DNA of 64,000 nt from Candidatus Uhrbacteria bacterium (GCA_016188475.1 JACPHT010000007.1:16467-80466); one strand, 5' to 3'. Positions 8,696-61,995 are shown, numbered from the stretch's first letter. The notes: generated by a model from the sequence alone, not told the origin. A program made the numbers and translations.

Positions 8696-8814
8696 CTGTT
8701 GCTCCTTTGTAGAGAAGATTCATCTGCGCCTGTCGCAGATTAGCCTGAATAGGCTATCAGAATTTACATATTTTGTCAATAATGATAGATTTGGGTCGTA
8801 ATTTGAGACACTAT

Positions 8815-8923: not shown

Positions 8924-8931
8924 GATGAAAA

Positions 8932-8959
8932 CACTTAACTACCGATCGGGAGTTAAGTG
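8932..8959. repeat. Palindrome family copy 1 (CACTTAACTACCGATCGGGAGTTAAGTG).
   Basis: 28-bp dyad related to the copies at 9060-9093 and 33801-33834. Confidence 0.7.
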
Positions 8960-9059
8960 AAAATGAATAAATTAAAATCTGTTTCTCCACAATTGATATA
9001 TTGAGATAAATTATAGATAAAAACTTTAAATTATACTGTTAATTTGAAAATACACAGAA

Positions 9060-9093
9060 TCACACTTAACTACCGATCGGTAGTTAAGTGTGA
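9060..9093. repeat. Palindrome family copy 2 (TCACACTTAACTACCGATCGGTAGTTAAGTGTGA), a perfect 34-bp palindrome.
   Basis: Direct reading. It lies 80 bp past the dnaX stop. Confidence 0.75.
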
Positions 9094-9171
9094 TTAAAAA
9101 AACACCACCTTTCAGCGGCGGAATAATTTCAATTAAAAAAACAAACTTTTAATAATCGGGAATTCTTATTC

Positions 9172-10743
9172 TTACGTCATCACTGTTCCGCCGAATTCGC
9201 TCACGAGCTTTTGCAAATTTTCTTCGTTTTCATGTTTTTTTTGAATCGCTTTTACTTTAATACGACGACCAATCACTTTTTCCAAAACATCCTCAATCAC
9301 CTGACGGTTTTTATCTTTGTTAACTGTTTGAACATACAAATCGTACGCAAAACCAAGTTCGACGTGCTCGCCTGTTACTCCGCAAACTTCGCACGACTGC
9401 ATGAACAGTGGTAAGGACGCATTACACTCTTTGATCTGTTCAAAAACTTGCGGCCATTTTGCGCGAACTTCATCAAGAGAAATGACTGGGATCGTATCAA
9501 AAACTGTTTCGTTTTCCCCTTCGACAAGCTCAGGGAGTAATGAATTTTCTTGCTCACCAATCTCGGTCCTTTCAGACCTTTCGGTCCTTTCCGACCTTTC
9601 CGACCTTTCGGTCCTTTCCGACCTTTCAGACCTTTCTTCATAAACCGAACCAACCCCCTGCTCCTTAAAATCCACTTGTCCTCCTTTGTCCTCCTTTGTC
9701 TCCTTTTGTCCTCCATTGTCACATATCTCAACAATAGCGAGCTCGATCGGCAACTGCGGCAAATGTTCGGAACGAATTTTTGTTTTCGCTTCAAGCAAGG
9801 AGGTGAGGGCTTGACGCGTAAACGAAATATCAGACTCTGGCAAAGCTTTTGAAAGTTGATCAAACAAACGATCACGCAAATTCGCGATCACATCTTCAAC
9901 AAACATTTTCAAATCAACTCCTTGTTCAATAAATGTATTCAAGTCAGAAATACAGCTTCCTGTATTTTTTTTAAAAAGATGACTAACAAAAGTTTCAACC
10001 AAAACCGTTGTTGTGGCAGGAAGAACAAGCGAAGCAAGTTCAACAGTGATGTGGTTTTCACCCAAAGCCATGAGTTGGCCAAGCAAACTCTCGGCGTCTC
10101 GCGCACAACCTGTGCTATGTCGAACTACTTGCTCAAGAACCTCATCATCAATTTTCATTTCCTCTGATTTTACAATTTCTCGCAACCGTTTCATCATTTC
10201 TTCCTTTTTAATTTTTCTAAAATCAAATCTTTGACATCGACTCACGATTGTTTCCGGAACTTTGTGAATTTCAGTTGTTGCTAAAATAAAAAGCACATGC
10301 TCTGGCGGCTCTTCAAGTGTTTTCAAAAGCGCATTGAATGCCGAAGTTGAAAGCATGTGAACTTCATCAATAATAAAAACTTTCTTTTTGAGTTGATTTG
10401 GAGCAAAACGAACGCTTTTGATTATATTTTCTCGAACATTCTCTACGTCTGTATTAGACGCAGCATCAATTTCGTAGATATCAAGCGAAGAACCTGAAGT
10501 GACTTGTTCACATGCGGAACACGTGTTGCATGGTTCGTTGTGTTTTGGTTTTTCACAATTAATAAGCTTTGCCAAAAGTCGCGCAGTTGTTGTTTTTCCA
10601 ACTCCACGCGGACCAGTAAACAAATAAGCATGGGCGATGCGGCCCATTTCAAATTGGTTTTGAATAGTTGTTGATACATGCGGCTGACCAATTAAATCAG
10701 AAAACTTTTGTGGTCTGTACGCACGGTATAAGGCTAAGGACAT
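9172..10743 (-). CDS. dnaX: DNA polymerase III subunit gamma/tau. It carries an in-frame ERSERSERTERSERSERTERSERTE low-complexity linker.
   Basis: GPRGVGKTT Walker A motif, Zn-module cysteines, DEVHMLS, and a clamp-loader fold pattern. Length is 523 aa. Confidence 0.85.
   Translation of the reverse strand: MSLALYRAYRPQKFSDLIGQPHVSTTIQNQFEMGRIAHAYLFTGPRGVGKTTTARLLAKLINCEKPKHNEPCNTCSACEQVTSGSSLDIYEIDAASNTDVENVRENIIKSVRFAPNQLKKKVFIIDEVHMLSTSAFNALLKTLEEPPEHVLFILATTEIHKVPETIVSRCQRFDFRKIKKEEMMKRLREIVKSEEMKIDDEVLEQVVRHSTGCARDAESLLGQLMALGENHITVELASLVLPATTTVLVETFVSHLFKKNTGSCISDLNTFIEQGVDLKMFVEDVIANLRDRLFDQLSKALPESDISFTRQALTSLLEAKTKIRSEHLPQLPIELAIVEICDNGGQKETKEDKGGQVDFKEQGVGSVYEERSERSERTERSERSERTERSERTEIGEQENSLLPELVEGENETVFDTIPVISLDEVRAKWPQVFEQIKECNASLPLFMQSCEVCGVTGEHVELGFAYDLYVQTVNKDKNRQVIEDVLEKVIGRRIKVKAIQKKHENEENLQKLVSEFGGTVMT
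9565..9636. repeat. Eight tandem 9-bp units GGTCCTTTC/CGACCTTTC (the reverse complement of GAAAGGWCN) inside the dnaX CDS.
   Basis: Direct reading. The period is 9 bp, so the reading frame is preserved. Confidence 0.8.
9678..9720. repeat. About 4 tandem units of the 10-bp repeat GTCCTCCTTT inside the dnaX CDS.
   Basis: Direct reading. The same repeat is present at 47186-47229. Confidence 0.75.
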
Positions 10744-10761
10744 GTTGTTTGGTTCTTGGTT

Positions 10762-11376
10762 TTAAATAGTGCTACTTACCACACTTTCAACTGCCGCATA
10801 CGCAGAATCGCCTGATCTTGGTAACACAATTACAACTTCATCTCCTGGCATTGCTTTGAAATATGTGACGCTTGCGGTGATGACTTTATACACCCGATCG
10901 TCAGTCATCACAACATACTCTTGCGTTGATGAATCAAGCGCTAGTTTTCCAACAAGTCTCTGACGCTCAACAGGTCCTATTTGTTTATAAACGTGTGTTC
11001 CGTCTGGTTGGATTGTGAGCTTCAAAATGTCTCCCTCGACCAAACGAGATTTTGACGCATAGTTTTCAGGAACTTGATAACGCGCGCCATCAGCTCCAAC
11101 CATCATTTCTCCGTCAAACACTCCTTCAAGCACTCTGCTTCCTGTTTTTTGTTCAAGGTCTTGAGTTAAACCATTATTGTGGGTGACAAGGTCAACAAGC
11201 TGACGAGTCGCTCTGGACGAATCTCCTTGTTCAAGCAACTGAATAACATGCGTTATACTGTCACGCATTTTTTTTAACATTTGAACAGCAAGTTGATTTC
11301 GCGTATCAGCAAACTCCACGCGGTTCGCATGCGATTCAACGTCTGGTTCTGGTTCGAATGTTGGACTTGATGACAT
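10762..11376 (-). CDS. Hypothetical protein (204 aa).
   Basis: Intact ORF in an operon-like position upstream of dnaX. No motif was recognised. Confidence 0.45.
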   Translation of the reverse strand: MSSSPTFEPEPDVESHANRVEFADTRNQLAVQMLKKMRDSITHVIQLLEQGDSSRATRQLVDLVTHNNGLTQDLEQKTGSRVLEGVFDGEMMVGADGARYQVPENYASKSRLVEGDILKLTIQPDGTHVYKQIGPVERQRLVGKLALDSSTQEYVVMTDDRVYKVITASVTYFKAMPGDEVVIVLPRSGDSAYAAVESVVSSTI

Positions 11377-11449
11377 AATTATTGTCTTAGCTTATTTGCC
11401 CACTATAGCCTCTGGCGATGGTTGGTCGAAGACTGTAAGACGATTCGAA

Positions 11450-11490
11450 CAAAATTTTATCCTTCGACAGGCTCAGGAAATAAAATTGTG
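11450..11490. repeat. Hairpin element with a conserved TTCGACAGGCTCA loop (stem CAAAATTTTAT / ATAAAATTGTG).
   Basis: Member of the dispersed family described in the findings. Confidence 0.7.
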
Positions 11491-11493
11491 ACT

Positions 11494-26576: not shown

Positions 26577-26602
26577 ATAAAACCGGTTATCCCTTGATCG
26601 AA

Positions 26603-26645
26603 GGCAAAATTATAGCCTTCGACAGGCTCAGGCGATAATTTTGCC
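26603..26645. repeat. Hairpin element with a conserved TTCGACAGGCTCA loop (stem GGCAAAATTAT / ATAATTTTGCC, a perfect 11 bp).
   Basis: Direct reading. Confidence 0.75.
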
Positions 26646-26698
26646 GAAGTCGAATGGTATAACCGTTTTTTTGATTAAACGAAAAAGCAACTCAGTGT

Positions 26699-27901: not shown

Positions 27902-27943
27902 AAAAACCGCCCCTTCGACTAGTTCAGGGCGGTTTGGTTTTTC
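27902..27943 (-). terminator. Rho-independent terminator of hup (CCGCCC...GGGCGG followed by TTTTTGG on the minus strand).
   Basis: Direct reading. Confidence 0.6.
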
Positions 27944-49651: not shown

Positions 49652-51235
49652 TTAAAAATTCGCATCAAGTCCAGCCACTGACTTTTTCTCTGTTGCGACG
49701 TCGTAATCCGAAGTCGAATTGATCTTCAAACCAAACGTGTAATTTCCAACAAATGCGTCGGAAATATCATCGATCTGTTTGTTCCATGTTGAGCCATACA
49801 GTTCTGTTGCTATTTGTTCGGACGCTATCGCTCGCAGTTCTCCTTTTTTTGACACTGTATAAACAGTTGGCACTGTTTGAAACTTCACCATTTTTGTTCC
49901 AGGATGATATGTCACATTTTTCCCAAGTTGGAGTGAGGACATGAATGAAGAAGAAACTTCTTTCACGTTGTTGAAATTATCAAACCAAGTGAAAAAAACT
50001 TTATCGTTTGGAAATGAGTGACGCTTTCCGTCTGACGCATAAAAATAAACAGCTCGACATGGATCGTCCGCTTTTGTTTCTCCAACGCACGAGAGTTTTA
50101 TTAGAGAATTTTGTTCAACAGAAACAGCCGCGTTGCTTATATCTATTTTCGCAAACGATGGTGCCATAACGAACGCTTGCGCAATATTTAATCGCCCTGT
50201 TCCAACTTTTCCTTTTGCATCACCAGTTGAAATAACAGGACTCGCGGATAAACGTAAAATCGTTTCGATATCGCTCGGACCAAGAATCGGATAAGATGAT
50301 TTCAAAAGCGCGGCCGCTCCCGCAACCATTGGCACCGCCATTGAAGTTCCGGCCCAACCATTTGCATAATATGCAGACGAAAAATCTCTTTGATTGTCAT
50401 CTTGAAATGTTGTGCTAAAAATGTTTTCACCGGGCGCTGAAATGTCAGTGCATGTGGAACCGTAATTGGAAAAATCGGATTTCGTGTCGTTTTCGTCACT
50501 TGACGCAACTCCGATTACCCAGTCAGCGTTTCCTCCGTCACCATGACATGCTGGATAAATAGGTTTGTCATCAACGTTTATTCCACCACCCTTGGTGTTG
50601 CCGACCGCCGCGACAATTACAACTCCAGCTTCATACGCTTCTTTAATCGCATCCTTAAAAGATGGGTCAACTTCAAAACCAGTAAAACTCAAGTTGATTA
50701 CATTAGCTCCGTTTGCAACCGCATACTGAATTGCTTCTTTCGCTACAACAGATCCACCGATTCCGTTGTTGTCTAAAATTCTCAAATTCATCATCCTCAC
50801 ATGCCAGTTTATTCCTGCGATTCCATTTGCATTATTTCCAACAGCGCCAATTATTCCTGCTATAACAGTCCCGTGAGGAATGGCTGAATCGTCGTATGGT
50901 AAATTGAACGATGGAATTGGACTTGCGTCATCATCAACGAAATCATATCCGTTTACATCATCAATGTAACCATTTTTGTCATTATCAATTCCGTCACCAG
51001 CAGTTTCATCACCGTTTACCCAAACATTACCAACAAGATCGGGATGATCCATGTCAAAACCTGTATCAAGAATCGCGACAACAACATCTGTTGAACCAAT
51101 GTTGGAATCCCAAGCTTGTTCTAATTCCATTTTTTTCAAATACCATTGTTGTGAAAAATAAAAATCATTAGGTGTTAGTGCGAACGCTGGAAATGCAAAT
51201 GTTGCGCAAAAAAAGATCACGAAAAAATATCGCAT
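49652..51235 (-). CDS. Secreted subtilisin-like serine peptidase (S8) with a C-terminal ~140-aa conserved surface domain.
   Basis: Asp (VAILDTGFD), His (HGTVIAGI) and Ser (GTSMAVPMVAG) catalytic motifs. Signal peptide present. Confidence 0.85.
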   Translation of the reverse strand: MRYFFVIFFCATFAFPAFALTPNDFYFSQQWYLKKMELEQAWDSNIGSTDVVVAILDTGFDMDHPDLVGNVWVNGDETAGDGIDNDKNGYIDDVNGYDFVDDDASPIPSFNLPYDDSAIPHGTVIAGIIGAVGNNANGIAGINWHVRMMNLRILDNNGIGGSVVAKEAIQYAVANGANVINLSFTGFEVDPSFKDAIKEAYEAGVVIVAAVGNTKGGGINVDDKPIYPACHGDGGNADWVIGVASSDENDTKSDFSNYGSTCTDISAPGENIFSTTFQDDNQRDFSSAYYANGWAGTSMAVPMVAGAAALLKSSYPILGPSDIETILRLSASPVISTGDAKGKVGTGRLNIAQAFVMAPSFAKIDISNAAVSVEQNSLIKLSCVGETKADDPCRAVYFYASDGKRHSFPNDKVFFTWFDNFNNVKEVSSSFMSSLQLGKNVTYHPGTKMVKFQTVPTVYTVSKKGELRAIASEQIATELYGSTWNKQIDDISDAFVGNYTFGLKINSTSDYDVATEKKSVAGLDANF

Positions 51236-51258
51236 AAAACTTCAAGCCAAATTTTATT

Positions 51259-51492
51259 CCTTGAGCTTGTCGAAGAGACAAAATTTGGTTAAATCATCTA
51301 CAGCCTTCGACAGGCTCAGGCAATAACTATTCATAACGCATTACCACCTTCGACAGGCTCAGGCAATAACTATTCATAACGCATTACCACCTTCGACAGG
51401 CTCAGGCAATAACTATTCATAACGCATTACCACCTTCGACAGGCTCAGGCAATAACTATTCATAACGCATTACGGCTCAGGCAATAATTTGC
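51259..51492. repeat. Tandem array of about 4.5 units of a 43-bp repeat CCTTCGACAGGCTCAGGCAATAACTATTCATAACGCATTACCA. A degenerate reverse-orientation copy precedes it.
   Basis: Direct reading. Units begin at 51304, 51347, 51390 and 51433. Confidence 0.85.
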
Positions 51493-51513
51493 AACATGCA
51501 AATTGTTTCTATT

Positions 51514-53553
51514 CTACCAGATCGCACAGGTTGCACCGAATCTGTTTGACAATGTAAATGGAAAAAATCCACCAAGAACAACGCCGTTATTTTCAAAAAT
51601 TCTCAAATGAGGACCGGCTTTTAACAAAGGCATTGTGTAAATTTCAGCGCGACCGTTTTGATCAATATCTCCTGAACACACTTTTGCTCCGACACTCGTT
51701 TTTTGTTGATAAGGCATGAAAAATGTCTCGCGTGTTCCTGTTGGTGAATATGTCTCGATAAACGAAACTTTTTTGATGAGCGAGCTAACTACGATTTCAT
51801 TTTGCCCATCGCCATCAATGTCGCTGGCTGAAATGGTTTGTCCTTTTGAATCTTTTGAGAGACTAAACTCTCGAACATAACGACCGTCGCCATCTGTAAT
51901 TCGAATCAAGGATTCATTTTTTTGTTGAAGCAAAAATATAAGTTCATTTGACGCGTCTTCATCCATATTCGCAATCGCAAGTTGAAGAACTGAATCAACA
52001 CGCCCAAATGGACGCAACATACCCTGAAGCTGTCCATAACGATTAAACATTCGCACATCTCCAATGCCTCCAGACTCTGAAACAACAAAAATTTCTGCGA
52101 TTCCATCCGCGTTCACATCACCTGAAAACACCAAAATTCCACCGCGATCCGATGGATCATAAGCAAAAAACTGCGAAAGCAATTTTCCATCTAAATCAAA
52201 AACTCGAACTTGTGGACCGCCGCCTTTCCTCGCGCCAGTAATAATTTCTTCTTTTCCATCGCCATTAACATCAGCCATTGCGAGCGAAACACCACCGCGA
52301 AAATTCTTGTTATAAGCCAAAAACGACCCTTGTTTTTCTCCGTGAGCGTTAACGCGGATGACGCGAGGTTCAGTTCCAGGACCTTCTGCCACAACAAGAG
52401 AACGAGAATGGTCTGTGTTTGTTTTGACAGGTGCGATTCCTTGACCTGTTGCAAAAACTTTCGCGGCTTGAAGCGCGTTCGCAATGTTCAATCTTCCGGA
52501 GCCAAGACGTTTGCGAGCTTCAACTGAAGTTTCCTTCACTGGATCAACAGAAAGTTTGAGAGACAAACGGATCTGTTCCGGAGTTAGCGATGGAAACGCG
52601 GATTTCAAAAGAGCAGCCGCGGCGCTGACCATTGGCGCGGCGATTGATGTTCCTTCCCATGGCGAACCATACGAAGTCGAGGTCAAAAGATTTGACGCGT
52701 CATTGTACACGCTCGAAAAAATGTTTGTGCCAGGAGCGCTTAAGTCAGTACATCTTTCTCCAAAATTAGAGAACGTCGCTTTTTGGTCATTTTTATCTGT
52801 TGCCGCAACACCGATTACAATTTCTTTGTTCAAAAGTGAATCGTAACACGCTGGATAACTTGGTTTTAGATTCACATCGCGATCGCCATTTCCTACTGCG
52901 GAAACCACCACAACACCTTGATCAACCGCCCACGCAATCGTCTTTGCAAAATTCATGTCAGATTGATCAGACGTAAAACTCAAATTGATAACTTGCGCGC
53001 CGTTTTTTACAGCGTATTCAATTGCTTGTCGCACATCATAAGTTGATCCAGCGCCTTTTTCGTTTAAGATTCGAAGTGGCATGATTGAAATTTTTTGATT
53101 AATACCAGCGATTCCGATTCCATTTTTTGTTTCAGCTCCGATAATTCCAGCGATCGCTGTTCCATGCGAAATGATTGTGTCATTGAACTCCTTGCTTATC
53201 ACAGGAGACGGGTCAGGATCACTGTCAACAAAATCCCATCCGATCGTGTCGTCTTCATATCCATTTCCGTCATCGTCTTTATGATTGTTCGGGATTTCCA
53301 ATTTATTGCGCCAATACTGATTTTCAAGGTCTTCATGATCAAGATCAAATCCGGCATCAAGAATCGCGACAATAACATCAGTAGAGCCAATGGTTTCCTG
53401 CCAAGCAAGCGAAACACCAATTTTATTCAAATACCATTGTTCATTGTAAAACGGATCGTTTTGAGATTTGGCAGATAAATGAAAAAAAGGCGTAAAAATC
53501 ACGCTAATTAGAATTAAAAAATAAAAACTGAATGCAAAAACAGACGCTTTCAT
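51514..53553 (-). CDS. Subtilisin-like S8 peptidase fused to C-terminal FG-GAP/VCBS repeats.
   Basis: S8 D/H/S motifs (AILDAGFD, HGTAIAGI, GTSIAAPMVS). FG-GAP-type repeats (DVNGDGKEEI, DVNADGIAEI). The start is reassigned to MKASVFAF at 53553. Confidence 0.8.
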   Translation of the reverse strand: MKASVFAFSFYFLILISVIFTPFFHLSAKSQNDPFYNEQWYLNKIGVSLAWQETIGSTDVIVAILDAGFDLDHEDLENQYWRNKLEIPNNHKDDDGNGYEDDTIGWDFVDSDPDPSPVISKEFNDTIISHGTAIAGIIGAETKNGIGIAGINQKISIMPLRILNEKGAGSTYDVRQAIEYAVKNGAQVINLSFTSDQSDMNFAKTIAWAVDQGVVVVSAVGNGDRDVNLKPSYPACYDSLLNKEIVIGVAATDKNDQKATFSNFGERCTDLSAPGTNIFSSVYNDASNLLTSTSYGSPWEGTSIAAPMVSAAAALLKSAFPSLTPEQIRLSLKLSVDPVKETSVEARKRLGSGRLNIANALQAAKVFATGQGIAPVKTNTDHSRSLVVAEGPGTEPRVIRVNAHGEKQGSFLAYNKNFRGGVSLAMADVNGDGKEEIITGARKGGGPQVRVFDLDGKLLSQFFAYDPSDRGGILVFSGDVNADGIAEIFVVSESGGIGDVRMFNRYGQLQGMLRPFGRVDSVLQLAIANMDEDASNELIFLLQQKNESLIRITDGDGRYVREFSLSKDSKGQTISASDIDGDGQNEIVVSSLIKKVSFIETYSPTGTRETFFMPYQQKTSVGAKVCSGDIDQNGRAEIYTMPLLKAGPHLRIFENNGVVLGGFFPFTLSNRFGATCAIW

Positions 53554-53613
53554 ATAGCGTCTGCATTGTAACATTGGTATCTTGTTTTCTCCAGATTCTG
53601 TATGGCGGTAGTT

Positions 53614-53688
53614 AAAGAGCGGTAGCACTATGTCTCCAGGCCATCGGACTGTCGCCGCTGTTCCTTTCGACATAGTGCTACCGCTCTT
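53614..53688. repeat. GC-rich inverted-repeat element. It has perfect 19-bp arms AAAGAGCGGTAGCACTATG / CATAGTGCTACCGCTCTTT, and the core is TCTCCAGGCCATCGGACTGTCGCCGCTGTTCCTTTCGA.
   Basis: Direct reading. Confidence 0.8.
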
Positions 53689-53750
53689 TGCTGTTATTTC
53701 GGTTTACCGGCAACCAATGTTAGTCCCCTTTGGAATTGGTACGACACTTG

Positions 53751-55214
53751 TTAAAAATTCGCATCAAGTCCAGCCACTGATGTTTTCTCTGTTGCGACGT
53801 CGTAATCTGAAGTCGAATTGATCTTCAAACCAAACGTATAATTTCCAACAAACGCGTCGGAAATATCATCGATCTGTTTGTTCCATGTTGAGCCATACAG
53901 TTCTGTTGCTATTTGTTCGGACGCGATTGCGCGTAATTCACCCTTCTTTGATACTGTATAAACAGTTGGCACTGTTTGAAACTTCACCATTTTTGTTCCA
54001 GGATGATATGTCACATTTTTCCCAAGTTGGAGTGAGGACATGAATGAAGAAGAAACTTCTTTCACACTGTCAAAGTTATCAAACCATGTAAAAAAAACTT
54101 TGTCGTTTGGAAACGCATGACGCTTCCCGTCTGACGCATAAAAATAAACTGCTTTACATGGATCATTTATTTGAGCGTTTACTTGACAGGCGAGTTTGAT
54201 GAGATTCCCAGCCACAGCTTCAGCCGTACCCCCTTCGACTGGCTCAGGGGATATTACTGTATCTACTGGCGTTTCCGTAACCGCTTCCCATTTCAATATC
54301 ACTGACTGATAATCATCTTTTGTGCCAGCAATCCAAAGTTCGTTCGTTGATGGATAATAAACATCACGGAGTGTGAAATTTTGCGGTGTATAATCTGTTG
54401 CTGTCCAAGTTTTTCCTCCATCTTGCGATCGAACAATAATTTTGTCGCCGACAATCACAATATCATCGCCAACTGCTTCAATGTCATAAAGCGTTTGTGT
54501 TGAAAGTCCGCTTACTGAAATCGTTGACCACGAATATCCGCTATCTGTTGTTTTTCGAATCGTTCCATTTTTTCCAACAACATATCCAGACGAAGAACTT
54601 GTAAACCAAACAGCAAGCAAATCTGTGTCAGTCGCCTTTCCTTTATTTGTCCACGTAATTCCAGAATCTGTTGTTTTTAACAATATCCCTTCTGAACCGA
54701 CAACCCACGCTGTTCCGTCACCACGATCTTGCACACCGAACAACGCAAGTGTCGTATTCGAAGTTGTTGTGTTCCATGTATCTGTATTTGAACCGTAATA
54801 TAAAATCCTGCCGTTTGTTCCAACAATGTACCCATGTTCAGAAGAAGCATCAATATCATAAAAAGTATCAGTGATTTCAAGTTTCCTTTGACTCCACGTC
54901 AAACCATTATTTGTTGATTCACGCAAGGTTCCACCTTCTCCAACCGCTCGGACTGTTGTTCCTGTTGTTTCAATATCTTGCCAATAAACATTTCCGCTTT
55001 GATCATACACAGTCCAAGTGTTTCCATTGTCAGTTGAACGAATGATGTTGCTTCCGTTTCCAACAGCAAAATAATTATCACCGGCTTTTGTAATACCTTG
55101 CAGACCTTGAATTGTTCCTTTTTCTTTTTCAATCCAACCTGAAGCGTGAGTCGGAAGAGAGATAAAAAACAATAAGACAAAAATCATTGATCTAATAAAA
55201 AAACGGTTCTTCAT
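53751..55214 (-). CDS. Secreted BNR/Asp-box repeat beta-propeller protein. It carries the same C-terminal ~140-aa domain as the S8 peptidase at 49652-51235.
   Basis: Multiple S/T-x-D-x-G-x-T-W boxes (STDNGNTW, STNNGLTW, TTDSGITW, TTDSGYSW, SQDGGKTW). Signal peptide present. Confidence 0.65.
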   Translation of the reverse strand: MKNRFFIRSMIFVLLFFISLPTHASGWIEKEKGTIQGLQGITKAGDNYFAVGNGSNIIRSTDNGNTWTVYDQSGNVYWQDIETTGTTVRAVGEGGTLRESTNNGLTWSQRKLEITDTFYDIDASSEHGYIVGTNGRILYYGSNTDTWNTTTSNTTLALFGVQDRGDGTAWVVGSEGILLKTTDSGITWTNKGKATDTDLLAVWFTSSSSGYVVGKNGTIRKTTDSGYSWSTISVSGLSTQTLYDIEAVGDDIVIVGDKIIVRSQDGGKTWTATDYTPQNFTLRDVYYPSTNELWIAGTKDDYQSVILKWEAVTETPVDTVISPEPVEGGTAEAVAGNLIKLACQVNAQINDPCKAVYFYASDGKRHAFPNDKVFFTWFDNFDSVKEVSSSFMSSLQLGKNVTYHPGTKMVKFQTVPTVYTVSKKGELRAIASEQIATELYGSTWNKQIDDISDAFVGNYTFGLKINSTSDYDVATEKTSVAGLDANF

Positions 55215-55591
55215 ATATCTAATTTATTTTCGATAACTTCAAGCCGATCTTCGTGTCGAAGATACTGGCTTCTTTGCATTAAAAGTTCCTGTTCAAATGT
55301 TATGTGCCGAATAGCGATCGCGTCAATTGCTGTAAGGATCTCATCCTTAAATCCAATCATCTCATCTTTTGTAACAAAATTTCGCATTTCGTATCGAAGA
55401 TTAAATTCCAAGTCCTTAAGATCATCTTTCGTTGCAAAACGTTCGAATTCTTTTTTGAGTTCGTCCTTTGTAGCGAAAGACTTAAGTTCGATCCTTATTT
55501 CATTAATGTCGCCCTTGATTTCATCAACGTCGCCTTTGATTTCATCAATGGACTTTTGAAGTTTATTTATCTTTGTTTCTTGTATTGACAT
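55211..55591 (-). CDS. Hypothetical coiled-coil protein.
   Basis: Heptad-like EIKGDVDEIKGDINEIRIELK. The start is reassigned to MSIQETK at 55591. The ORF-track N-terminus translates repeat elements. Confidence 0.4.
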   Translation of the reverse strand: MSIQETKINKLQKSIDEIKGDVDEIKGDINEIRIELKSFATKDELKKEFERFATKDDLKDLEFNLRYEMRNFVTKDEMIGFKDEILTAIDAIAIRHITFEQELLMQRSQYLRHEDRLEVIENKLDI

Positions 55592-55660
55592 ATCTTGTTT
55601 TGATTGTAACAAATTATTTTGATTAAAAAAATCCCCCCAACGCACATTGGGAGGATAAAG

Positions 55661-55740
55661 CATTATTGCCTGAGCAAAGTCGAAGGCTGTAGATGATTTA
55701 TTCAAATTTCATCCCTTCGACAGGCTCAGGGAATAAAATT
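55661..55740. repeat. Inverted pair of TTCGACAGGCTCA-type motifs (CCTGAGCAAAGTCGAAGG ... CCCTTCGACAGGCTCAGGG).
   Basis: Direct reading. Confidence 0.7.
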
Positions 55741-55827
55741 TGACTATCTTACGAGAATTTTCTTGTTTGTCAATCAGAGGATGTTGATAACATTAAGAGA
55801 TCCTTCGCGGAGTTTACCCTGAACGAA

Positions 55828-55869
55828 GGTAAAGTTATGCCTTCGACAGGCTCAGGTAATAACTTTACC
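55828..55869. repeat. Hairpin element with a conserved TTCGACAGGCTCA loop (stem GGTAAAGTTAT / ATAACTTTACC, a perfect 11 bp).
   Basis: Direct reading. Confidence 0.75.
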
Positions 55870-55899
55870 TAGGTCAAAGGGCTCAGAATAACAAACGAT

Positions 55900-55931
55900 A
55901 TAAAACCAAAACCCCCGCGAAAAGCGGGGGT
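55900..55931 (-). terminator. Rho-independent terminator after the large surface-protein gene (CCCCCGCTTTTCGCGGGGG followed by TTTTGGTTTT on the minus strand).
   Basis: Direct reading. Confidence 0.6.
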
Positions 55932-55954
55932 TGTTTGGTTCTTAATTCTCGCAT

Positions 55955-55994
55955 CCTTCGACTCCGGCAAATTATTGCCTGAGCCTGTCGAAGG
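55955..55994. repeat. Partial inverted pair of the same motif (CCTTCGACTCCGG ... CCTGAGCCTGTCGAAGG).
   Basis: Direct reading. Confidence 0.6.
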
Positions 55995-56036
55995 CCGTAA
56001 CTGCCTCCGCTCAGGGTATATGAGAGTCAAGTTAGA

Positions 56037-59000
56037 TTACTTGGACCATGTCTCGCCTGCGAGATCAAGGTTCTTAACCAAGAATCCATTGTGCCAGTCG
56101 CCTGTTGAACTTGCGTTCGCGGCAGACGCGTGGCTTGCGGCGCTAATATCAGACCAGATGAGCTCTGCGGCAGTTCCGTCAGATGTATTGGCGGCTGCGC
56201 TTGTAAAGAGCTCCATGATTTCTGACTGACCAGCACCCTGATCTGTTTCGTCGTTGATATAGACGCTTGTGCCATTTGTAGCCGCATCTTGAGCCAAGTA
56301 GAAGCTCACTGAATCGCCAACAGTGTCAGCACCTACTGTGCGGAATCCTGTTGGAGTTCCACGAACAGTGTAGGTAACTGTTTCACCTTGAGAGATTGTG
56401 TCTTCTGTTGTCCAAGTTACGATTACTCTCGTGCTTGGTGTGGCATCAACGATACCTGTTGTGTCGGAAACAACGTTTCCAAGTTCATCAACGATTGTTG
56501 TCGAAGACGTGATGTCAGAACCGTTCTTGTAAATCTTGAGCGATTCGACTTCGAGTGTGTCACCTGTTCCACCGTCAGACCATGCTGTTGTGAGCTTGAA
56601 TTGCTTCAATGCAACAGATCCGCCAGAGGCAGTCAAAGTGAACTTATACATATCTTGTGCCTGTCCGTTCACAAGTGTGCTGTTTGTAAGATCAACAGCG
56701 CTAAGTGTTGGGATTGAAGCAAAGACGTATTGTGAGTTTCCGTTAACACTGGAGAATTCTGATCCAGATGTTTCGGTTGTTTCAACTCCGTTGCTGTCAG
56801 CAAACTTCACAGAGTAGAGAGTGTTTGCAACATCGGTTTGTGATGTGCCCGCTCCGACTCCGACACTGTTTAGAAGATACTTGACAGTCAAAATCTTTGT
56901 CGCGTTAGCGGCAACCGGAATGCTAAGACCTGTCCATGTTGCTCGCGTGAGCGAGCTTTCGTCGTACACAGTTGAAGCCTTGAGTGTGCTTCCGTCATAC
57001 AAACGAACTTCACCAACGAGCCCAGAAGCTGTTGCGCTTGCAACGCTTGTGGTCATTTCCTCGATAGTATAGCTCTCGTTTGACGCGCTGAAGCGATACT
57101 TGGCGGCTGTAACTTCCTGGTTTCCATAAACAATCGCGGCAACTGGGTGATCGTCATTGAACTCGGTAAATGTACCGGCTGTGATGGTCACTGTTTGACC
57201 TGCCTGTTTTGATGTTGATGGAGACGTGCCTGACTTCACTGATGTTCCGTTTGCATCAAAGGCTGTCTGAATGACTTCACCTGTTGAGATAGCTGAATCA
57301 ATATCAGCATATGCTTCAACATAGATAGTCTCACCGGCTTTCAACTCGTAGTTGATAGACCATGTGTTTGACGTTTCAGAGATCGAGCCCTTTATGCTGG
57401 TCATTACCATGTTTGAGGCAGGACCATATTTGAGATAGAGGTTATACATGTCTCCAGCGGCTGGCTCTGAAGTATCAGATGTCGCTGTATCTGTCTGGTC
57501 AAAGTCGATGTTGAAATCTGTCAAGTTGATACCTTCTGAAGTACCTGCTGTAACTGTGTAAGAACCAATCTTATAAGCAGTCTTTGGATCAATTGTTGTC
57601 TGGTTCGCGTATGAACCATTCTTGGCAACGGTCAATGCCGCGGCCGCAACTGTCAACGTGTTTGCGATAACAGCGGCGCCATCTGGTGCATCAATGTAGC
57701 TACCAGATGTCATTCGCTGAACGTTGAGAACGTTGTTCATGTCAGATATTTCAGCACGGATCGTGTCAGCATCTTCGATGTTGTCTGTTCCATCTGAATC
57801 GAATATGTCTGAACGGATTTCAAGTGATGCTGGAACCCCAGGACTGACAATAAACGATGAGCCGAACGAGTACGATGTGTAATCAGTTCCTGCTCCTGCG
57901 TTTGCCTCAAGTCCTGTTGTGCTTCCAATCTGCACACCGTTTAAGTATACAGCACCATTTCGCAATGTAACGTCATTGCCATCGCTCTCTGTGAAAGCAA
58001 AGCGTAGGTTTTCAACTTTCATCTTTTCTCCGAACGCTTTAATTGTCCACTTTCCAAGAGTAACGCCAGAAGACGTCTCTACGATATTCCCTGTTGGGGA
58101 ATCCGTGGTCTTGGTAAATGTAAGAGAACCACTTGCCATTGTCTGTAAACCAGCATCCATGGCTGAGAATGTGCTTGAACCAACAGTTGAAAGAACTGGC
58201 TGTCCGTAGTCAGAATCAACTGCTACGAAGTCAGCGCTGTTTCGAAGACCAACTTGGACTGTGCGACCAGATCCGCCGATAACGTCGGCCATGACTTTAA
58301 CCTGATGGTTACCGGTCTTGAGCTCGATTGGAGCGGCTGAAAGATCAAATGTCACATAACCAAGAGAATCTTCTGAAGCAACTGAACTTCCTCGCTTGAC
58401 ACCACCGACATAGAGTTGCCAGTTATTGACATCTACTGCGTCAATGGAACCAATGTTGCGAACGCGAACTGCTTTGAGCGAGAGTTCATTTGTTCCAACT
58501 GAAAGTGTGCGCTCAAATAGTTTAATTCCTTCTGCTGGATCAACACTTGTATTTGCGGTTGGAGTTGTGCTTCCTGAGAAATCAGCTGTACCAAATGTGC
58601 TTGGCTGAGAAGCGATTGTGTGAGTTGCTCCAACAAGTGGGAAGGAACCGGAAGCTGCACCACCGTTTGAGAATGTCAAATCTGAAGCAGAAGCGAGCTT
58701 AAGACCAACGGTTTGGCCGTTTGTGCTTGCGGCAATGTCAGAACGCACGACAACTTCCTTTGAAGCGCCAGGAGCGATTGCAAAAAGACCTGATGCATCA
58801 TTGAAAGTAACTTTTCCATCAGAGATTGTTGCGACGTCCGTCAAACGAACGAAGCCATCAAAGAGGTAAAGGTTAGACAATGTTGTGTCTGAAGAAACTC
58901 CAAGGCGAGCAAGAGTCACTTTGTTAAGTTTAACTTCAGAAGCTGAATTGTTGGTAAGTTTCAAGTGTGCTAGATCGGCAATACCTTGTCCAGCAATCAG

Positions 59001-60061: not shown

Positions 60062-60946
60062 TCACTCCACTACTACCTCCTTCAACAACTGAAACGCTCG
60101 ACGATACGCGCCTTCTTTCTTCAATAAAATTGCTGTTTCAATTTTCTGTTTTTGTTCAAGCGTCAAATCTTTTGCTTCCAACGTCGCGACTTCTTGTTCA
60201 AATGTTTTTTCAAGTTCGCGCGCGACTGCTTCGTCTTCAGTTGCTTCATGAGCTGTGATAATCACTTCAACAGCTTCGTCTTGTGTGTCTTTTAGAATTT
60301 GTTGAACAACATCTGTTTCCTGTTTAACATCATCCGGTAAATTTACGCTCGAGTCCGCAACTGTTTCTTGATACGCTTTTGTTTTTCGTCCAACTTCTTT
60401 TGCAAGTTCTGTTTGTGATGAAGTCGCGTTTTCTTGTTTCAAATCTGACTGAATGTTTTCCACTTCTTTCTTAAACTGTTGCATTGCAAGTCGAACCGCT
60501 GAAGCATTGTCTTTATATTCTGTTGCTGTAAGAGCCACCATTTCTTCCAAACGTCTTGATGTGAATTCGACTTGCAATTTTGCTTTTTGCGAAGGACTAA
60601 ACGCTGTTGCTAATTGGATTTTTTCAAGAGAAAGTTTCACGTTGTACATTTTTTCGCCAGGAAGCGCGTTAAACGAAGAGCTGTTCGCGCTTGCAAATCC
60701 GCCAAGCAACAGCAAAAACACAGCCATGCTAATTGCAAGCGGTTTTACAATTGTGCGGCTGAACTGAAACACATAAAATTCAAGATAATCACGGAAGCCG
60801 TAATCAACTTTTTCATTTTCGTTGCTTTTTGGAAAATCATTTTCTTCAGCAAAACGATTCCACAATTTCTGTGTATCAAATCCTGCTCCCATTTCTGGTG
60901 CATCTTTTATTGACTCGAGTAATTTTTCAAAATCCCGCTCGTTCAT
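60062..60946 (-). CDS. Putative membrane-anchored anti-sigma factor (DUF5667-like).
   Basis: Immediately downstream of an ECF sigma gene and overlapping it. Single TM followed by a coiled extracytoplasmic region. Confidence 0.45.
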   Translation of the reverse strand: MNERDFEKLLESIKDAPEMGAGFDTQKLWNRFAEENDFPKSNENEKVDYGFRDYLEFYVFQFSRTIVKPLAISMAVFLLLLGGFASANSSSFNALPGEKMYNVKLSLEKIQLATAFSPSQKAKLQVEFTSRRLEEMVALTATEYKDNASAVRLAMQQFKKEVENIQSDLKQENATSSQTELAKEVGRKTKAYQETVADSSVNLPDDVKQETDVVQQILKDTQDEAVEVIITAHEATEDEAVARELEKTFEQEVATLEAKDLTLEQKQKIETAILLKKEGAYRRAFQLLKEVVVE

Positions 60947-61484
60947 ATAGATCTTTGAGTTTTTTGATCGCTCGATGAAGCATTACTGATGTTGCGTTTT
61001 CAGTTTTTCCAAAATATTTCGCGATGTGCTTTACAGAGTATCCTTCCAAATACCGCAGAATTATTATCTCTTGATCGTCTTCATCAAGTTCTTTCATTTT
61101 TTCTCTAACAAATGCCGCGTCCACTTTATCCATTATCTTTTGCGGCGAAAGAACAGATGGGATTTGCTTTTCAGTCCCATCTTCATTTTCAATCGGAACA
61201 ATCTTTACTCTCCCACTTTTTTCATAGTGACTTGCTATAACGTTTCGCGCGACAGTGAAAAGCAGTCCGTTAAAGTGTTTCACCTCTGTTCTTATAATAT
61301 AGTCCCAAACCTGCAGTAATACAGTTGAATACGCATCTTCTGCGTCTTCTTTTGTCGGAAGTCTGAAATGCAGAAATCTCAGAACTCCAGAACCATACAT
61401 TTTGACCAATTTTTCAAAAGCAGCCTTGTCCTGAAAGCCGCGAATCCTTAGTAAAAGAAATTGTTCTAATTTGTCTGGCGACAC
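60927..61484 (-). CDS. RNA polymerase sigma-70 factor, ECF subfamily.
   Basis: Region 2 (AEDAYSTVLLQVW) and region 4 HTH (LEGYSVKHIAKYFGKTENATSVMLHRAIKKL). Length is 185 aa. Confidence 0.8.
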   Translation of the reverse strand: MSPDKLEQFLLLRIRGFQDKAAFEKLVKMYGSGVLRFLHFRLPTKEDAEDAYSTVLLQVWDYIIRTEVKHFNGLLFTVARNVIASHYEKSGRVKIVPIENEDGTEKQIPSVLSPQKIMDKVDAAFVREKMKELDEDDQEIIILRYLEGYSVKHIAKYFGKTENATSVMLHRAIKKLKDLYERAGF

Positions 61485-61639
61485 AGAGGTATATATAAGT
61501 AGTGGTTCTTACACAATGGCTGGATTCTAGCTTATATTTGCCAAAATTACAAGAGTTTTACTCATTTACTTGACTTTTTCTTGAATTTTGCATACACTGG
61601 TGTAAACAAAAAGAGTTGTGCACAGCATGTAATGAATCT

Positions 61640-61675
61640 TCATACTGCCTTCGACAGGCTCAGGCAATAAACGTA
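61640..61675. repeat. TTCGACAGGCTCA motif copy (GCCTTCGACAGGCTCAGGC) in the divergent promoter region.
   Basis: Direct reading. Confidence 0.65.
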
Positions 61676-61701
61676 TTTAGTAATTCAAAGACTTACTTAA
61701 T

Positions 61702-61995
61702 ATGACAAAAGACGCAATTAGACTATCGGTTTCTGAAGCCGCGCGAATGTTCGGGGTTAGTCCGATCACAATTCGAAGGGCAATCAAGGATCAAGAGATC
61801 ACTTATGTCGTTGTTCAGGGACGCTATAAGATAAATTTCGAGTCTCTTCTTCGTTGGTCACAGCGAACAACAACAGTCCGAAACAAACGCGACGAAAGCG
61901 GTATCGGACAGTTTGTTGAGCAATGGAAAATCCGAAACAAACTCTTTTCCCCTAATCCACGCGGCGTAAAGGAGGAAGACGAAAAATCTTCCTAA
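61702..61995 (+). CDS. Helix-turn-helix DNA-binding protein (excisionase/MerR-like HTH_17 type).
   Basis: LSVSEAARMFGVSPITIRRAIKDQEI. Length is 97 aa. Confidence 0.5.
   Translation: MTKDAIRLSVSEAARMFGVSPITIRRAIKDQEITYVVVQGRYKINFESLLRWSQRTTTVRNKRDESGIGQFVEQWKIRNKLFSPNPRGVKEEDEKSS

What the first reader, a model, noticed from the sequence alone, without database searches (positions are those of the whole stretch)
55828..55869. Dispersed hairpin family with an invariant 13-nt loop (UUCGACAGGCUCA) and co-varying AT-rich stems
At least 7 intergenic copies share the core (G/C)CCTTCGACAGGCTCAGG(C/G). The copies lie at 11450-11490, 26603-26645, 55661-55740 (as an inverted pair), 55828-55869, 55955-55994, 61640-61675 and in the 51304-51475 tandem array. 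An in-frame copy sits inside the BNR gene at about 54228-54250, where it encodes PEPVEG. In the well-formed copies the core is closed by a 2-3 bp GC clamp that co-varies (gcc/ggc, ccc/ggg, cc/gg). That clamp is followed by a 9-11 bp stem whose sequence differs completely between copies but stays complementary (GGCAAAATTAT/ATAATTTTGCC, GGTAAAGTTAT/ATAACTTTACC, CAAAATTTTAT/ATAAAATTGTG). A conserved loop with compensatory stem changes is the signature of a functional RNA or protein-recognised hairpin, not a fortuitous palindrome. The copies are not followed by U-tracts, so they are not plain terminators. I do not recognise this motif as any known element.
Basis: seen in the sequence. Interest (0 to 1): 0.75.

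Follow-up and report, generated by a model that had tools for sequence, protein, structure and literature searches.

The report
Tiny self-nesting hairpin repeat, cross-phylum
The hairpins are real copies of a very small repeated DNA element with a fixed 13-base loop; it has recently multiplied in this Candidatus Uhrbacteria genome, turns up with the same loop in bacteria of more than 15 phyla, and I could not find it described anywhere.

Summary
The core CCTTCGACAGGCTCAGG occurs 12 times in the window against 0.02 expected. A covariance model finds 13 good copies plus one degenerate copy. The pairs that close the loop covary strongly.

The element is not specific to this genome. Rfam has nothing, and sequence-based literature searches found nothing.

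It behaves like mobile DNA of the REP/REPIN or cyanobacterial SDR kind, not like a cis-acting RNA:
- Relatives with 83-86 % protein identity carry 0-2 copies where the window has 10.
- One window copy is a 46-nt hairpin inserted exactly into the loop centre of an older copy that is intact in a relative.
- Loops are inverted between orthologous terminators.
- Copies form inverted doublets and tandem arrays, and sit in frame in protein linkers.
- Orientation relative to flanking genes is 39:39 in other genomes.
- No gene family, including any transposase, is associated with the copies.

The machinery that moves the element is unknown. An enzyme that recognises single-stranded DNA hairpins is my inference. 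The loop is identical across phyla, unlike the species- or genus-specific repeats I know of this kind. Interest is moderate to high.

The parts
55828..55869 (+). The finding's copy: inner hairpin GGTAAAGTTATgCC / loop TTCGACAGGCTCA (55842-55854) / GGtaATAACTTTACC.
   Evidence: covariance model 23.2 bits, E 0.0014
55817..55882 (.). Compound element C. The degenerate outer core halves CCCTGAAC..GTCAAAGGG enclose the 55828-55869 hairpin. It is homologous to the compounds at 26578-26673 and 55955-56016.
   Evidence: my alignment of the three compounds, read directly from the sequence
55955..56016 (.). Compound element B. The older hairpin CCTTCGAC..GCTCAGGG lies directly after the stop of the 1244-aa gene. 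A 46-nt hairpin (55963-56008) with the opposite-orientation loop at 55980-55992 interrupts it. The relative L245 has the uninterrupted form CCC-TGAGC-TT-GTCGAA-GGG at the same site.
   Evidence: 32 bits
55659..55740 (.). Inverted doublet: a degenerate copy (TGAGCAAAGTCGAA, 55671-55684) and an intact copy (loop 55716-55728). The whole doublet is absent from the orthologous spacer of L245, L247 and L248. It is homologous to the doublet at 51250-51330.
51250..51330 (.). Second copy of the roughly 85-nt inverted doublet family (loops 51262-51274 on - and 51306-51318 on +).
51294..51490 (+). Tandem array of four identical 43-nt units plus a partial fifth, growing out of the right-hand hairpin of the doublet. 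The material between the loops is identical from unit to unit.
26578..26673 (.). Compound element A, inside the bidirectional terminator between the convergent hflX and rpmB genes. The inner hairpin is 26603-26645 and its loop 26618-26630.
27902..27938 (.). Degenerate copy forming the loop of the terminator of the HU-family gene upstream of hflX: AAACCGCCC[TTCGACTAGTTCA]GGGCGGTTT. The ortholog in L121 has nearly the same stem (one base differs) with the loop inverted.
   Evidence: (E 0.019)
11450..11490 (+). Single copy between two co-directional genes, with an AT-rich bulged stem. It folds no better than shuffles (z -0.8).
61638..61674 (+). Single copy with a short stem, in the divergent promoter region between the sigma-70 gene and an HTH_17 gene. 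The same copy is present in an independent assembly (L249, 100 % identical).
54222..54258 (+). In-frame genic copy (TTCGACTGGCTCA, read as PEPVEG) in an indel-rich linker of the BNR/Ycf48-like protein. The 86 %-identical ortholog has it; the 83 %-identical ortholog does not.
9508..9544 (+). In-frame genic copy (TTCGACAAGCTCA, read as PELVEG in the same frame) in the DnaX linker, between the ATPase and C-terminal domains.
55910..55932 (.). Conserved intrinsic terminator of the 1244-aa gene. It is context, not part of the repeat: the repeats lie on both sides of it.

Best explanation
This is a family of very small hairpin-forming dispersed repeats. Simple units are about 30-45 nt; doublets and nested forms reach 60-90 nt. 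It is selfish or near-neutral mobile DNA of the same general kind as REP/REPIN elements and the cyanobacterial small dispersed repeats.

The family is defined by an invariant 13-nt loop, TTCGAC-AR-GCTCA (TGAGC-YT-GTCGAA on the other strand). Two or three covarying, mostly G:C, pairs close the loop, followed by a stem that only needs to pair.

Proposed mechanism: the element acts as DNA. When the duplex is single-stranded or extruded, the hairpin presents the loop. The loop serves both as the recognition site for whatever copies the element and as a preferred landing site. New copies therefore land in the centre of existing loops, which gives nested forms. They also land next to existing copies, which gives doublets and arrays, and in other tolerated places such as terminator loops, 3' UTRs and protein linkers.

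Shown by the data:
- recent expansion in this lineage
- precise insertion of one hairpin into the loop centre of an older one
- loop inversion within conserved stems
- covariation of the stem
- spread across phyla
- no dependence on the direction of transcription

Inferred, not shown:
- that single-stranded DNA is the active form
- that a trans-acting hairpin-specific nuclease/ligase (HUH/Y1-type, as for IS200/IS605 and RAYT) does the work
- that the loop is its cleavage and target site
For: - **Lineage-specific expansion.** In the syntenic 12-kb stretch the window has 10 copies. Relatives with an 86 %-identical BNR protein have 2, and relatives with an 83 %-identical one have 0.
- **Filled versus empty site.** L245 reads CCC-TGAGC-TT-GTCGAA-GGG. 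The window has 46 nt carrying an opposite-orientation hairpin in place of the TT. The flanks and the downstream terminator are conserved.
- **Nesting elsewhere.** Hairpins sit between TTCGAC and GCTCA in unrelated contigs L033, L092, L168 and L179.
- **Loop inversion.** The loop is inverted inside a near-identical stem at the terminator of the HU-family gene, and the element turns over at the hflX/rpmB terminator.
- **Doublets and arrays.** Of 109 adjacent pairs, 75 are inverted and 34 direct. The window array has identical 43-nt units; short-period arrays also occur in other contigs.
- **Orientation.** Relative to co-directional flanking genes it is 39:39 in genome loci. Convergent gene spacers outnumber divergent ones 43 to 18, the bias a review reports for REPs in Pseudomonas syringae (PMC3184786).
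- **Mismatch asymmetry.** A.C-type mismatches outnumber G.T-type about 2:1 on the TTCGAC strand, whichever strand is transcribed (21 vs 10 and 23 vs 11).
- **No gene association.** Neither the 100 flanking ORFs nor the ORFs bracketed by two copies show any enriched family.
- **Stem covariation**.
- **Breadth.** The exact 17-mer occurs in at least 15 phyla, in viral contigs and in Sphingobium, Comamonas and Moraxella plasmids.
- **In-frame copies** lie in variable protein linkers.
Against: - No cognate transposase or other associated gene was found. The test was weak: it covered only genes next to sampled copies, and one output showed only the top 25 of 113 families.
- As far as I know, known REP families are specific to a species or genus, whereas this loop is identical across phyla. 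That calls for a very broadly distributed and conserved partner, for frequent horizontal transfer, or for a conserved host factor.
- Some copies are built into working-looking terminators, so a host function is not excluded.
- Viral contigs show a strong, unexplained strand bias. The TTCGAC strand is the G-rich strand in 75 of 92 contigs.
- The insertion in the window replaces the central dinucleotide and leaves no obvious target duplication, so the chemistry is unclear.
- Compensatory changes could come from templated mutation within quasi-palindromes and not from selection.
Confidence: 0.5

Rival explanations
1. The element works at the RNA level. It would be a 3'-UTR or terminator-associated hairpin whose loop is a small structured module: U-A, tandem sheared G.A/A.G, then G-C. 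That module would stabilise transcripts, assist termination or bind a conserved RNA-binding protein.
For: - Copies lie just after stop codons and before the true terminator, or inside terminator loops.
- Convergent spacers outnumber divergent ones 43 to 18.
- Loop variation is confined to the central positions, as expected for an apex.
- A structured loop is modestly favoured over an open loop by nearest-neighbour energies: -12.7 vs -10.0 kcal/mol for the TGAGC strand and -11.4 for the other strand.
- Stems covary.
- In the window, 7 of the 9 intergenic copies lying between co-directional genes place the TGAGC form in the mRNA.
Against: - Orientation relative to flanking genes is 39:39 in other genomes.
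- The mismatch asymmetry is independent of the transcribed strand.
- Nested copies carry both orientations on one strand.
- Copies also occur in a promoter region (61650) and in coding linkers.
- Orthologous sites in close relatives lack them.
- No gene family is associated.
Confidence: 0.15
2. The element is a host-level DNA site. A conserved host protein (a nucleoid, topoisomerase or replication/repair factor) would bind the extruded hairpin, as gyrase, IHF and Pol I bind E. coli BIMEs. The repeats would be kept for chromosome biology.
For: - The loop is identical across phyla.
- Function would be independent of orientation.
- A review documents protein binding of this kind for REP/BIME elements (PMC3184786).
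Against: - The distribution is very patchy. Close relatives have 0-2 copies where the window has 10.
- There is no regular spacing.
- Nested and decayed copies are common.
- No similar sequence of about 25 nt or more was found in 5,426 E. coli genomes. This is a weak test, because stems vary.
Confidence: 0.1
3. No dedicated machinery exists. The patterns would be by-products of replication template-switching and slippage at quasi-palindromes. These processes correct both arms together, invert loops, and expand half-units and tandem units.
For: - Runs of half-units occur: CCTTCGAC repeated several times, followed by AGGCTCAGG.. repeated several times (L033, L035, L090).
- Tandem arrays have identical units.
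- Loops are inverted between orthologs.
- Changes are compensated in both arms of near-identical copies.
Against: - It does not explain dispersal to new loci.
- It does not explain the invariance of the 13-nt loop in more than 15 phyla.
- It does not explain the precise 46-nt insertion of a pre-formed element.
Confidence: 0.1
4. The pattern is chance, or an assembly or adapter artefact.
For: About 70 chance occurrences of a given 17-mer are expected in the 596-Gb genome collection (my own arithmetic). Some hits lie near contig ends.
Against: - The window has 12 matches against 0.02 expected.
- The flanks are complementary far above the controls.
- The motif is present in isolate genomes such as Pedobacter, Novosphingobium, Sphingobium and Microbacterium.
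- An independent assembly is 100 % identical over the 61650 copy.
Confidence: 0.01

Closest known systems
REP / REPIN elements mobilised by RAYT (Y1/HUH) transposases
   Same: - They are short extragenic imperfect palindromes in high copy number.
- They often form inverted doublets that fold into a longer hairpin.
- Clusters arise by insertion into or next to existing copies, and tandem arrays occur (these two points are described for REPINs in PMC3116915).
- They favour spacers between convergent genes (PMC3184786).
   Different: - Here the conserved part is the loop, not the stem plus a GTAG-type tail.
- The same loop is found in more than 15 phyla, whereas the REP families I know are specific to a species or genus.
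- No RAYT-like gene was seen next to the sampled copies.
Small dispersed repeats (SDR) of Nostoc and relatives (Elhai et al. 2008, Genome Res 18:1484; paper not held, recalled from memory)
   Same: - They are very small (21-27 nt) dispersed elements.
- They have a hairpin structure supported by compensatory changes.
- They are found nested within copies of themselves.
- They are embedded in tandem repeats.
- There is evidence of recent mobility and no encoded protein.
   Different: - SDRs are confined to one cyanobacterial subgroup, and I do not recall this sequence among them.
- An RNA intermediate was proposed for them; nothing here speaks for or against that.
IS200/IS605 ends and their miniature derivatives (PATEs)
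   Same: - The hairpins are recognised as single-stranded DNA.
- Insertion occurs next to a short specific sequence without target duplication.
- The elements are active on the lagging-strand template.
- In three nested cases here the insert begins right after TTCGAC.
   Different: - Those elements have two different subterminal hairpins and a transposase or TnpB gene, or clear derivation from one.
- Their hairpin sequences are specific to each element.
Rickettsia palindromic elements (RPE; from memory)
   Same: They are palindromic repeats that can insert in frame into protein-coding genes, adding a peptide segment at tolerant positions.
   Different: RPEs are 100-150 nt long and restricted to Rickettsia.
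Intrinsic (Rho-independent) terminators
   Same: Two window copies are the loop or insert of hairpins flanked by A and T tracts: the terminator of the HU-family gene, and the hflX/rpmB terminator.
   Different: Most copies, including the finding's own, have no T tract and lie beside a separate, conserved terminator. A 13-nt conserved loop is not a feature of terminators.

Membership tests
REP/REPIN | Short imperfect palindrome, repeated, mostly extragenic | tested here: met
   13 copies in 64 kb, 11 of them intergenic. Hairpin complementarity is far above controls.
REP/REPIN | Predominantly organised as inverted doublets that can fold as one hairpin | tested here: met
   75 of 109 adjacent pairs are inverted. 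The window has two such doublets, at 51250-51330 and 55659-55740.
REP/REPIN | A RAYT (Y1 transposase) gene flanked by the repeats in the same genome | tested here: inconclusive
   No transposase appeared among 10 ORFs bracketed by copies or in the shown part of the result for 100 flanking ORFs. Only small samples of each genome were seen, and one output listed only 25 of 113 families.
REP/REPIN | Conserved stem with a GTAG-type unpaired tetranucleotide; sequence specific to a species or genus (from memory) | tested here: not met
   Here the stems vary and the loop is conserved. The same loop is found in at least 15 phyla.
MITE | Terminal inverted repeats matching an IS, target-site duplication, about 100-400 bp | tested here: not met
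   Units are 30-90 nt. The filled versus empty site comparison shows no clear duplication, and the central TT is replaced. No parent IS was seen.
Cyanobacterial SDR elements | Tiny hairpin repeats with compensatory changes that nest within themselves | tested here: met
   Nesting. Compensatory changes.
Cyanobacterial SDR elements | Sequence identity to one of SDR1-8; restriction to Nostocales-type cyanobacteria | not testable with these tools
   The paper and its sequences are not held. The distribution found here is far wider.
Intrinsic terminator | G+C-rich stem, short loop, run of T directly 3' | tested here: not met
   The finding's copy has no T run, and the terminator scan finds separate terminators at 55910-55932 and 55631-55656. 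The feature is met only for the compound at 26578-26673 and for 27902-27938.
Any Rfam RNA family | Match at the family's gathering score | tested here: not met
   The window gives only tRNA-Gln. Nothing above noise was found at E up to 10 in 51150-56150. None was found in 17 other loci.
Cis-regulatory RNA (riboswitch or leader type) | Fixed orientation and position relative to a defined set of genes | tested here: not met
   Orientation is 39:39. Flanking genes are unrelated housekeeping genes, with at most 2 members of any family.
CRISPR array | Constant repeats separated by unique spacers | tested here: not met
   The 43-nt units at 51304-51475 are identical, including the material between loops.
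IS200/IS605-type single-strand transposition | Strand bias relative to replication; Y1 transposase; insertion 3' of a fixed short target | tested here: inconclusive
   - In the window, 11 of 13 copies put the TGAGC form on the lagging-strand template as inferred from GC skew. This is confounded with gene direction.
- Genome loci show no skew association (36:34).
- Three nested cases begin right after TTCGAC.
- No enzyme was identified.

The most novel reading that the evidence does not exclude
The invariant loop is the cleavage and target site of a still unidentified, very broadly distributed system that moves 30-50-nt hairpins as single-stranded DNA. The elements would then be among the smallest self-targeting, self-nesting mobile DNAs known. 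Their host range would span most bacterial phyla, including the reduced genomes of Candidate Phyla Radiation bacteria, and sequences classed as viral. A related reading is that the loop TGAGC-N4-CGAA is a structural module shared by several sister repeat families.
Probability: 0.3. Interest if true: 0.8.

Novelty: new variant of a known kind. Interest (0 to 1): 0.6.

Why it matters
To my knowledge, small palindromic repeats such as REP, REPIN and SDR have been studied as lineage-specific elements. Here one exact 13-nt loop is shared by Chloroflexota, Actinomycetota, Bacteroidota, Cyanobacteriota, several classes of Pseudomonadota, Spirochaetota, Candidate Phyla Radiation bacteria and others, and by viral contigs and plasmids. 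Something must recognise that loop, and it is either very widely conserved or very widely transferred.

Several practical points follow:
- The filled versus empty site in this window gives a concrete starting point for working out how such tiny elements insert.
- Some hosts that carry the motif can be grown in culture (Sphingobium, Novosphingobium, Pedobacter, Moraxella), so the question can be tested experimentally.
- In GC-rich contigs my simple gene caller drew ORFs straight across copies (peptides such as PSTGSG, LRQAQ, LSLSKG and PEPVEG), so gene callers may produce spurious ORFs here.
- They remodel terminators, promoters and protein linkers.

Tried and rejected
- **Rfam.** I ran the gathering threshold on the window and on 17 loci, and a permissive scan on 51150-56150. 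Nothing was relevant.
- **Literature.** I searched by DNA string, by translated peptides and by descriptive terms. No description of this motif turned up. The Elhai 2008 paper is not held.
- **Resemblance to rRNA.** The core plus a common stem (GGCTCAGGAYGAACGG) resembles the 5' end of 16S rRNA, and the other strand resembles the 5' region of 23S. Against an E. coli rrn operon the best alignments score 19-21, the same as shuffled queries (mean about 19, maximum 28). I treat both as coincidence.
- **Cognate transposase next to copies.** ORFs bracketed by two copies are ordinary: a sigma factor, NuoJ, and phage sheath, protease and AAA proteins. Among 100 flanking ORFs no family has more than 2 members.
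- **Strand-specific RNA element.** Rejected on orientation and on the mismatch asymmetry.
- **Replication-strand bias outside the window.** Genome loci show none (36:34). Viral contigs show a strong bias I cannot explain.
- **T-loop, hammerhead or K-turn-like readings of the loop.** I considered these from memory. The covariation supports closure by the outer CC/GG pairs, and no ribozyme core fits.
- **E. coli genomes and cultured phages.** E. coli gave no match, and Caulobacter phages gave only marginal hits inside a coding sequence. These BLAST tests cannot see copies with different stems.
- **Extending the contig beyond the window.** This added only 3.2 kb, with no further copies.

Full report
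**1.

Window 55828-55869 reads GGTAAAGTTATgCC-TTCGACAGGCTCA-GGtaATAACTTTACC. As single-stranded DNA the surrounding 71 nt fold at -14.9 kcal/mol against -5.6 ± 1.9 for shuffles (z = -4.9).

The 17-mer CCTTCGACAGGCTCAGG matches 12 times with at most 2 mismatches, against 0.02 expected. A covariance model built from copies in other organisms (R1) was run over the window with filters off. It finds 13 copies at E ≤ 0.01. It also finds a degenerate copy at 27902-27938 (E 0.019) and a weak one at 55659-55696.

The window comes from a Candidatus Uhrbacteria bacterium (Patescibacteria, Candidate Phyla Radiation). Its HflX and BNR-type proteins are 100 % identical to NCBI entries on a 168-kb contig.

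**2. Anatomy in the window.**

Read on the strand of the genes (-), the three well-formed copies are one family of compound elements:

CCC-TGAGC-GRA-GG[arm]CC-TTCGACAGGCTCA-GG[arm']CC-GRA-GTCGAA-GGG

An intact hairpin therefore sits between the two halves of an older core in the opposite orientation (26578-26673, 55817-55882, 55955-56016).

GGCAAAATTAT and GGTAAAGTTAT differ at two positions, and both changes are compensated.

A second family is an inverted doublet of about 85 nt, present twice (51250-51330 and 55659-55740). At 51294-51490 a tandem array of four identical 43-nt units has grown out of its right-hand hairpin.

Copy 61650 lies in a divergent promoter region. Copy 11463 is a weak AT-rich hairpin (z -0.8).

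Two copies lie in frame in protein linkers, both read as P-E-(L/P)-V-E-G:
- in DnaX, between the ATPase and C-terminal domains
- in the BNR/Ycf48-like protein, in a stretch full of indels among homologs

Two copies belong to terminators:
- The compound at 26578-26673 lies inside the bidirectional terminator between the convergent hflX and rpmB genes.
- The degenerate copy at 27914-27926 is the loop of the terminator of the HU-family DNA-binding protein gene upstream of hflX, AAACCGCCC[..]GGGCGGTTT followed by a T run.

The finding's own copy lies beside, not in, the conserved terminator at 55910-55932.

**3. The motif is not private to this genome.**

The record titles include:
- Chloroflexota
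- Actinomycetota
- Cyanobacteriota
- Bacteroidota
- Ignavibacteria
- Alpha-, Beta- and Gammaproteobacteria
- Deltaproteobacteria and Myxococcales
- Acidobacteriota
- Eremiobacterota (Vulcanimicrobiota)
- Planctomycetota
- Latescibacterota
- Zixibacteria
- Calditrichaceae
- Treponema
- two other Candidate Phyla Radiation lineages

The viral-contig scan also hit its limit. A G+C-rich consensus finds up to 17 places per replicon in Sphingobium, Novosphingobium, Comamonas and Moraxella plasmids, none under an annotated feature.

In these sequences the flanks are again complementary. Examples are cgcCC..GGgcg, catCC..GGatg and cacCC..GGgtg, and a long stem such as tgtccgttcatCC..GGacgaacgga.

Copies that the scan did not select on their closing pairs have CC/GG, GC/GC, GG/CC, TC/GA, GT/AC, CG/CG and AT/AT. 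On 143 such copies the eight proposed pairs give:
- 61.9 % paired cells against 44.0 % in shuffles (0 of 500 reach it)
- a covariation score of 0.481 against 0.191 in shuffles and at most 0.165 in the slid controls

Loop variation is concentrated at the centre, TTCGAC-[AR]-GCTCA. Rfam has no family for it. Searches of the paper library by DNA string, peptide string and description found nothing.

**4. It behaves as mobile DNA, not as a conserved functional RNA.**

(a) Lineage-specific expansion. Four syntenic contigs from relatives were recovered. From the sigma-factor gene to the second subtilase gene, the window has 10 copies, L245 and L246 (86 % BNR identity) have 2, and L247 and L248 (83 %) have none.

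(b) A filled and an empty site. Directly after the stop of the large gene, L245 reads ...CTCATATACCC-TGAGC-TT-GTCGAA-GGGTG... The window reads ...CTCATATACCC-TGAGC-[GGAGGCAGTTACGGCCTTCGACAGGCTCAGGCAATAATTTGCCGGA]-GTCGAA-GGATG... The terminator downstream is conserved in all four sequences. A 46-nt hairpin has therefore entered the exact centre of the loop of an older copy, and it replaces the central TT.

(c) Nesting elsewhere. Insertions between TTCGAC and GCTCA also occur elsewhere:
- L033
- L092
- the identical compound TTCGAC-CA-TTCGACAAGCTCA-TG-GCTCA in two viral contigs of 46 % and 70 % G+C (L168 and L179)

(d) Turnover at one site. The hflX/rpmB terminator carries:
- a simple degenerate loop in L123 (CCC-TGAGCTTGTCAA-GGG)
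- a compound element in the window
- a differently stemmed copy in L121 and L122

At the terminator of the HU-family gene, the window and L121 share a near-identical stem (one base differs) while the loop is inverted.

(e) Doublets and context. Of 109 adjacent pairs in all fetched loci, 75 are inverted and 34 direct. Copies favour convergent over divergent spacers, 43 to 18.

(f) No link to transcription. I called genes with a simple self-trained gene caller that reproduces the tool's calls on L245. With those calls:
- Orientation relative to co-directional flanking genes is 39:39 in genome loci and 49:39 in viral contigs.
- A.C-type mismatches outnumber G.T-type in the stems about 2:1 on the TTCGAC strand, so the TGAGC strand can form more wobble pairs.
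- That asymmetry is the same whichever strand is transcribed (21 vs 10 and 23 vs 11). It belongs to the element, not to the mRNA.

(g) No gene association. Genes bracketed by two copies, and 100 genes flanking copies, are unrelated housekeeping or phage structural genes. No family has more than two members, and no transposase shows in the listed part of the output.

**5. How it most likely works.**

The stem must pair and the loop must keep its sequence. Insertions go into the loop itself. Orientation relative to genes does not matter. Together these features fit a hairpin recognised as single-stranded or extruded DNA.

In that reading the loop is both the recognition site and the preferred target of a trans-acting activity. 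The best-understood enzymes of this type are the HUH/Y1 enzymes of IS200/IS605 and the RAYTs proposed to mobilise REPINs (PMC3116915).

This step is inference. I found no such gene, and the samples were too small to expect one.

In the window, 11 of 13 copies carry the TGAGC form on the - strand. The negative GC skew of the + strand indicates that this strand is the lagging-strand template. That fits the model but is confounded with gene direction. Genome loci show no skew association (36:34). Viral contigs show the opposite and strong bias, 17:75, which I cannot explain.

Nearest-neighbour energies favour a partly structured loop over an open one. The structure would be U-A, tandem G.A, then G-C. 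It is slightly more favoured on the TGAGC strand (-12.7 against -11.4 kcal/mol as RNA).

Sister loops of the form TGAGC-N4-CGAA were seen in relatives (TGAGCGACAGCGAA in L123, GAGCGAAGCGAA in L245). This hints at a shared structural module, but I did not test it.

**6. Rivals.**

- RNA role (3'-UTR stabiliser or terminator helper). Position favours it. Orientation, turnover and nesting in both orientations argue against it.
- Host DNA-binding site. This would explain the invariance, but not the patchiness.
- Template switching without any enzyme. This can explain arrays, half-unit runs, loop flips and paired changes. It cannot explain dispersal or the cross-phylum identity of the loop.
- Chance or artefact. 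This is excluded.

**7. Comparison with known elements, and verdict.**

The closest known elements are REP/REPIN elements and the cyanobacterial SDR elements. My knowledge of the SDR elements is from memory: tiny, hairpin-forming, carrying compensatory changes and nested in themselves.

The family fails the sequence-level definition of REPs, because its loop is conserved instead of its stem, it has no GTAG tail, and it is not lineage-specific. It is too small for a MITE and lacks a target duplication.

I file it as a new variant of a known kind. The surprising part is one invariant loop across most bacterial phyla, including a reduced Candidate Phyla Radiation genome in which it has recently multiplied, with no description that I could find.

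Noticed in passing
L245:9430-9570; L247:8060-8130; L123:3660-3700: The same intergenic hot spots in relatives hold other palindromic repeat families in place of this one. These include GGGGTCTGGGGACCCC-type palindromes and GTCATTGCGAG...CTCGCAATGAC hairpins with the loop GAGCGAAGCGAA. L123 has GTCATCC-TGAGCGACAGCGAA-GGATC. The last two share the frame TGAGC-N4-CGAA with the loop studied here, which suggests a superfamily.
   Followed up: partly
viral loci L124-L243: In viral contigs the strand carrying TTCGACAGGCTCA is the G-rich strand in 75 of 92 contigs. Genome loci show no bias (34:36). I have no explanation. Many viral hits have weak stems and continue as ..GGACAGGC / ..GGGCAGGC.
   Followed up: partly
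window 14661-18962 (-): A class II ribonucleotide reductase gene is interrupted by an intein with a LAGLIDADG homing-endonuclease domain (Pfam Intein_splicing and LAGLIDADG_3).
   Followed up: no
window 55586-55660 (-) and L245:9590-9660: A hairpin followed by a T run (ATCCTCCCAATGTGCGTTGGGGGGATTTTTTT) sits just upstream of a small conserved ORF (about 92 aa in L245). It lies downstream of a promoter-like TTGACA..TAAGAT and is conserved in L245. It could be a 5' attenuator, or the terminator of a short upstream transcript. In the window the 85-nt doublet has inserted between the promoter-like site and this hairpin.
   Followed up: no
window core plus common stems in other phyla: The sequence TTCGA--CAGGCTCAGGAYGAACGG resembles the 16S rRNA 5' end (the 27F primer region), and the other strand resembles GAGCC..GAAGGACG near the 23S 5' end. 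Against an E. coli rrn operon neither is better than shuffled queries, so I treat both as coincidence.
   Followed up: yes
window 8854-8884 (+): The hairpin model gives a weak hit (10.4 bits, E 2.6) on the 3' part, around the T arm, of tRNA-Gln (8815-8888), because both contain TTCGA in a loop. I take this as not meaningful.
   Followed up: no
window 11494-14046 (-), 60062-61995, 61997-64000: The window holds a type IV coupling-protein-like ATPase (TraG/TrwB/VirD4 domains). It also holds a gene cluster conserved in all relatives: HTH_17, an ECF-type sigma factor, DUF5667 and a roughly 1240-aa protein with no Pfam domain.
   Followed up: no
L168 (IMG/VR contig, 46 % G+C), 1970-11900: A phage-like contig carries nine copies between structural genes (tail sheath and others), including a 70-nt tandem array. 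Its closing pairs differ from CC/GG (tgg/cca, ctg/cag, cca/tgg).
   Followed up: partly
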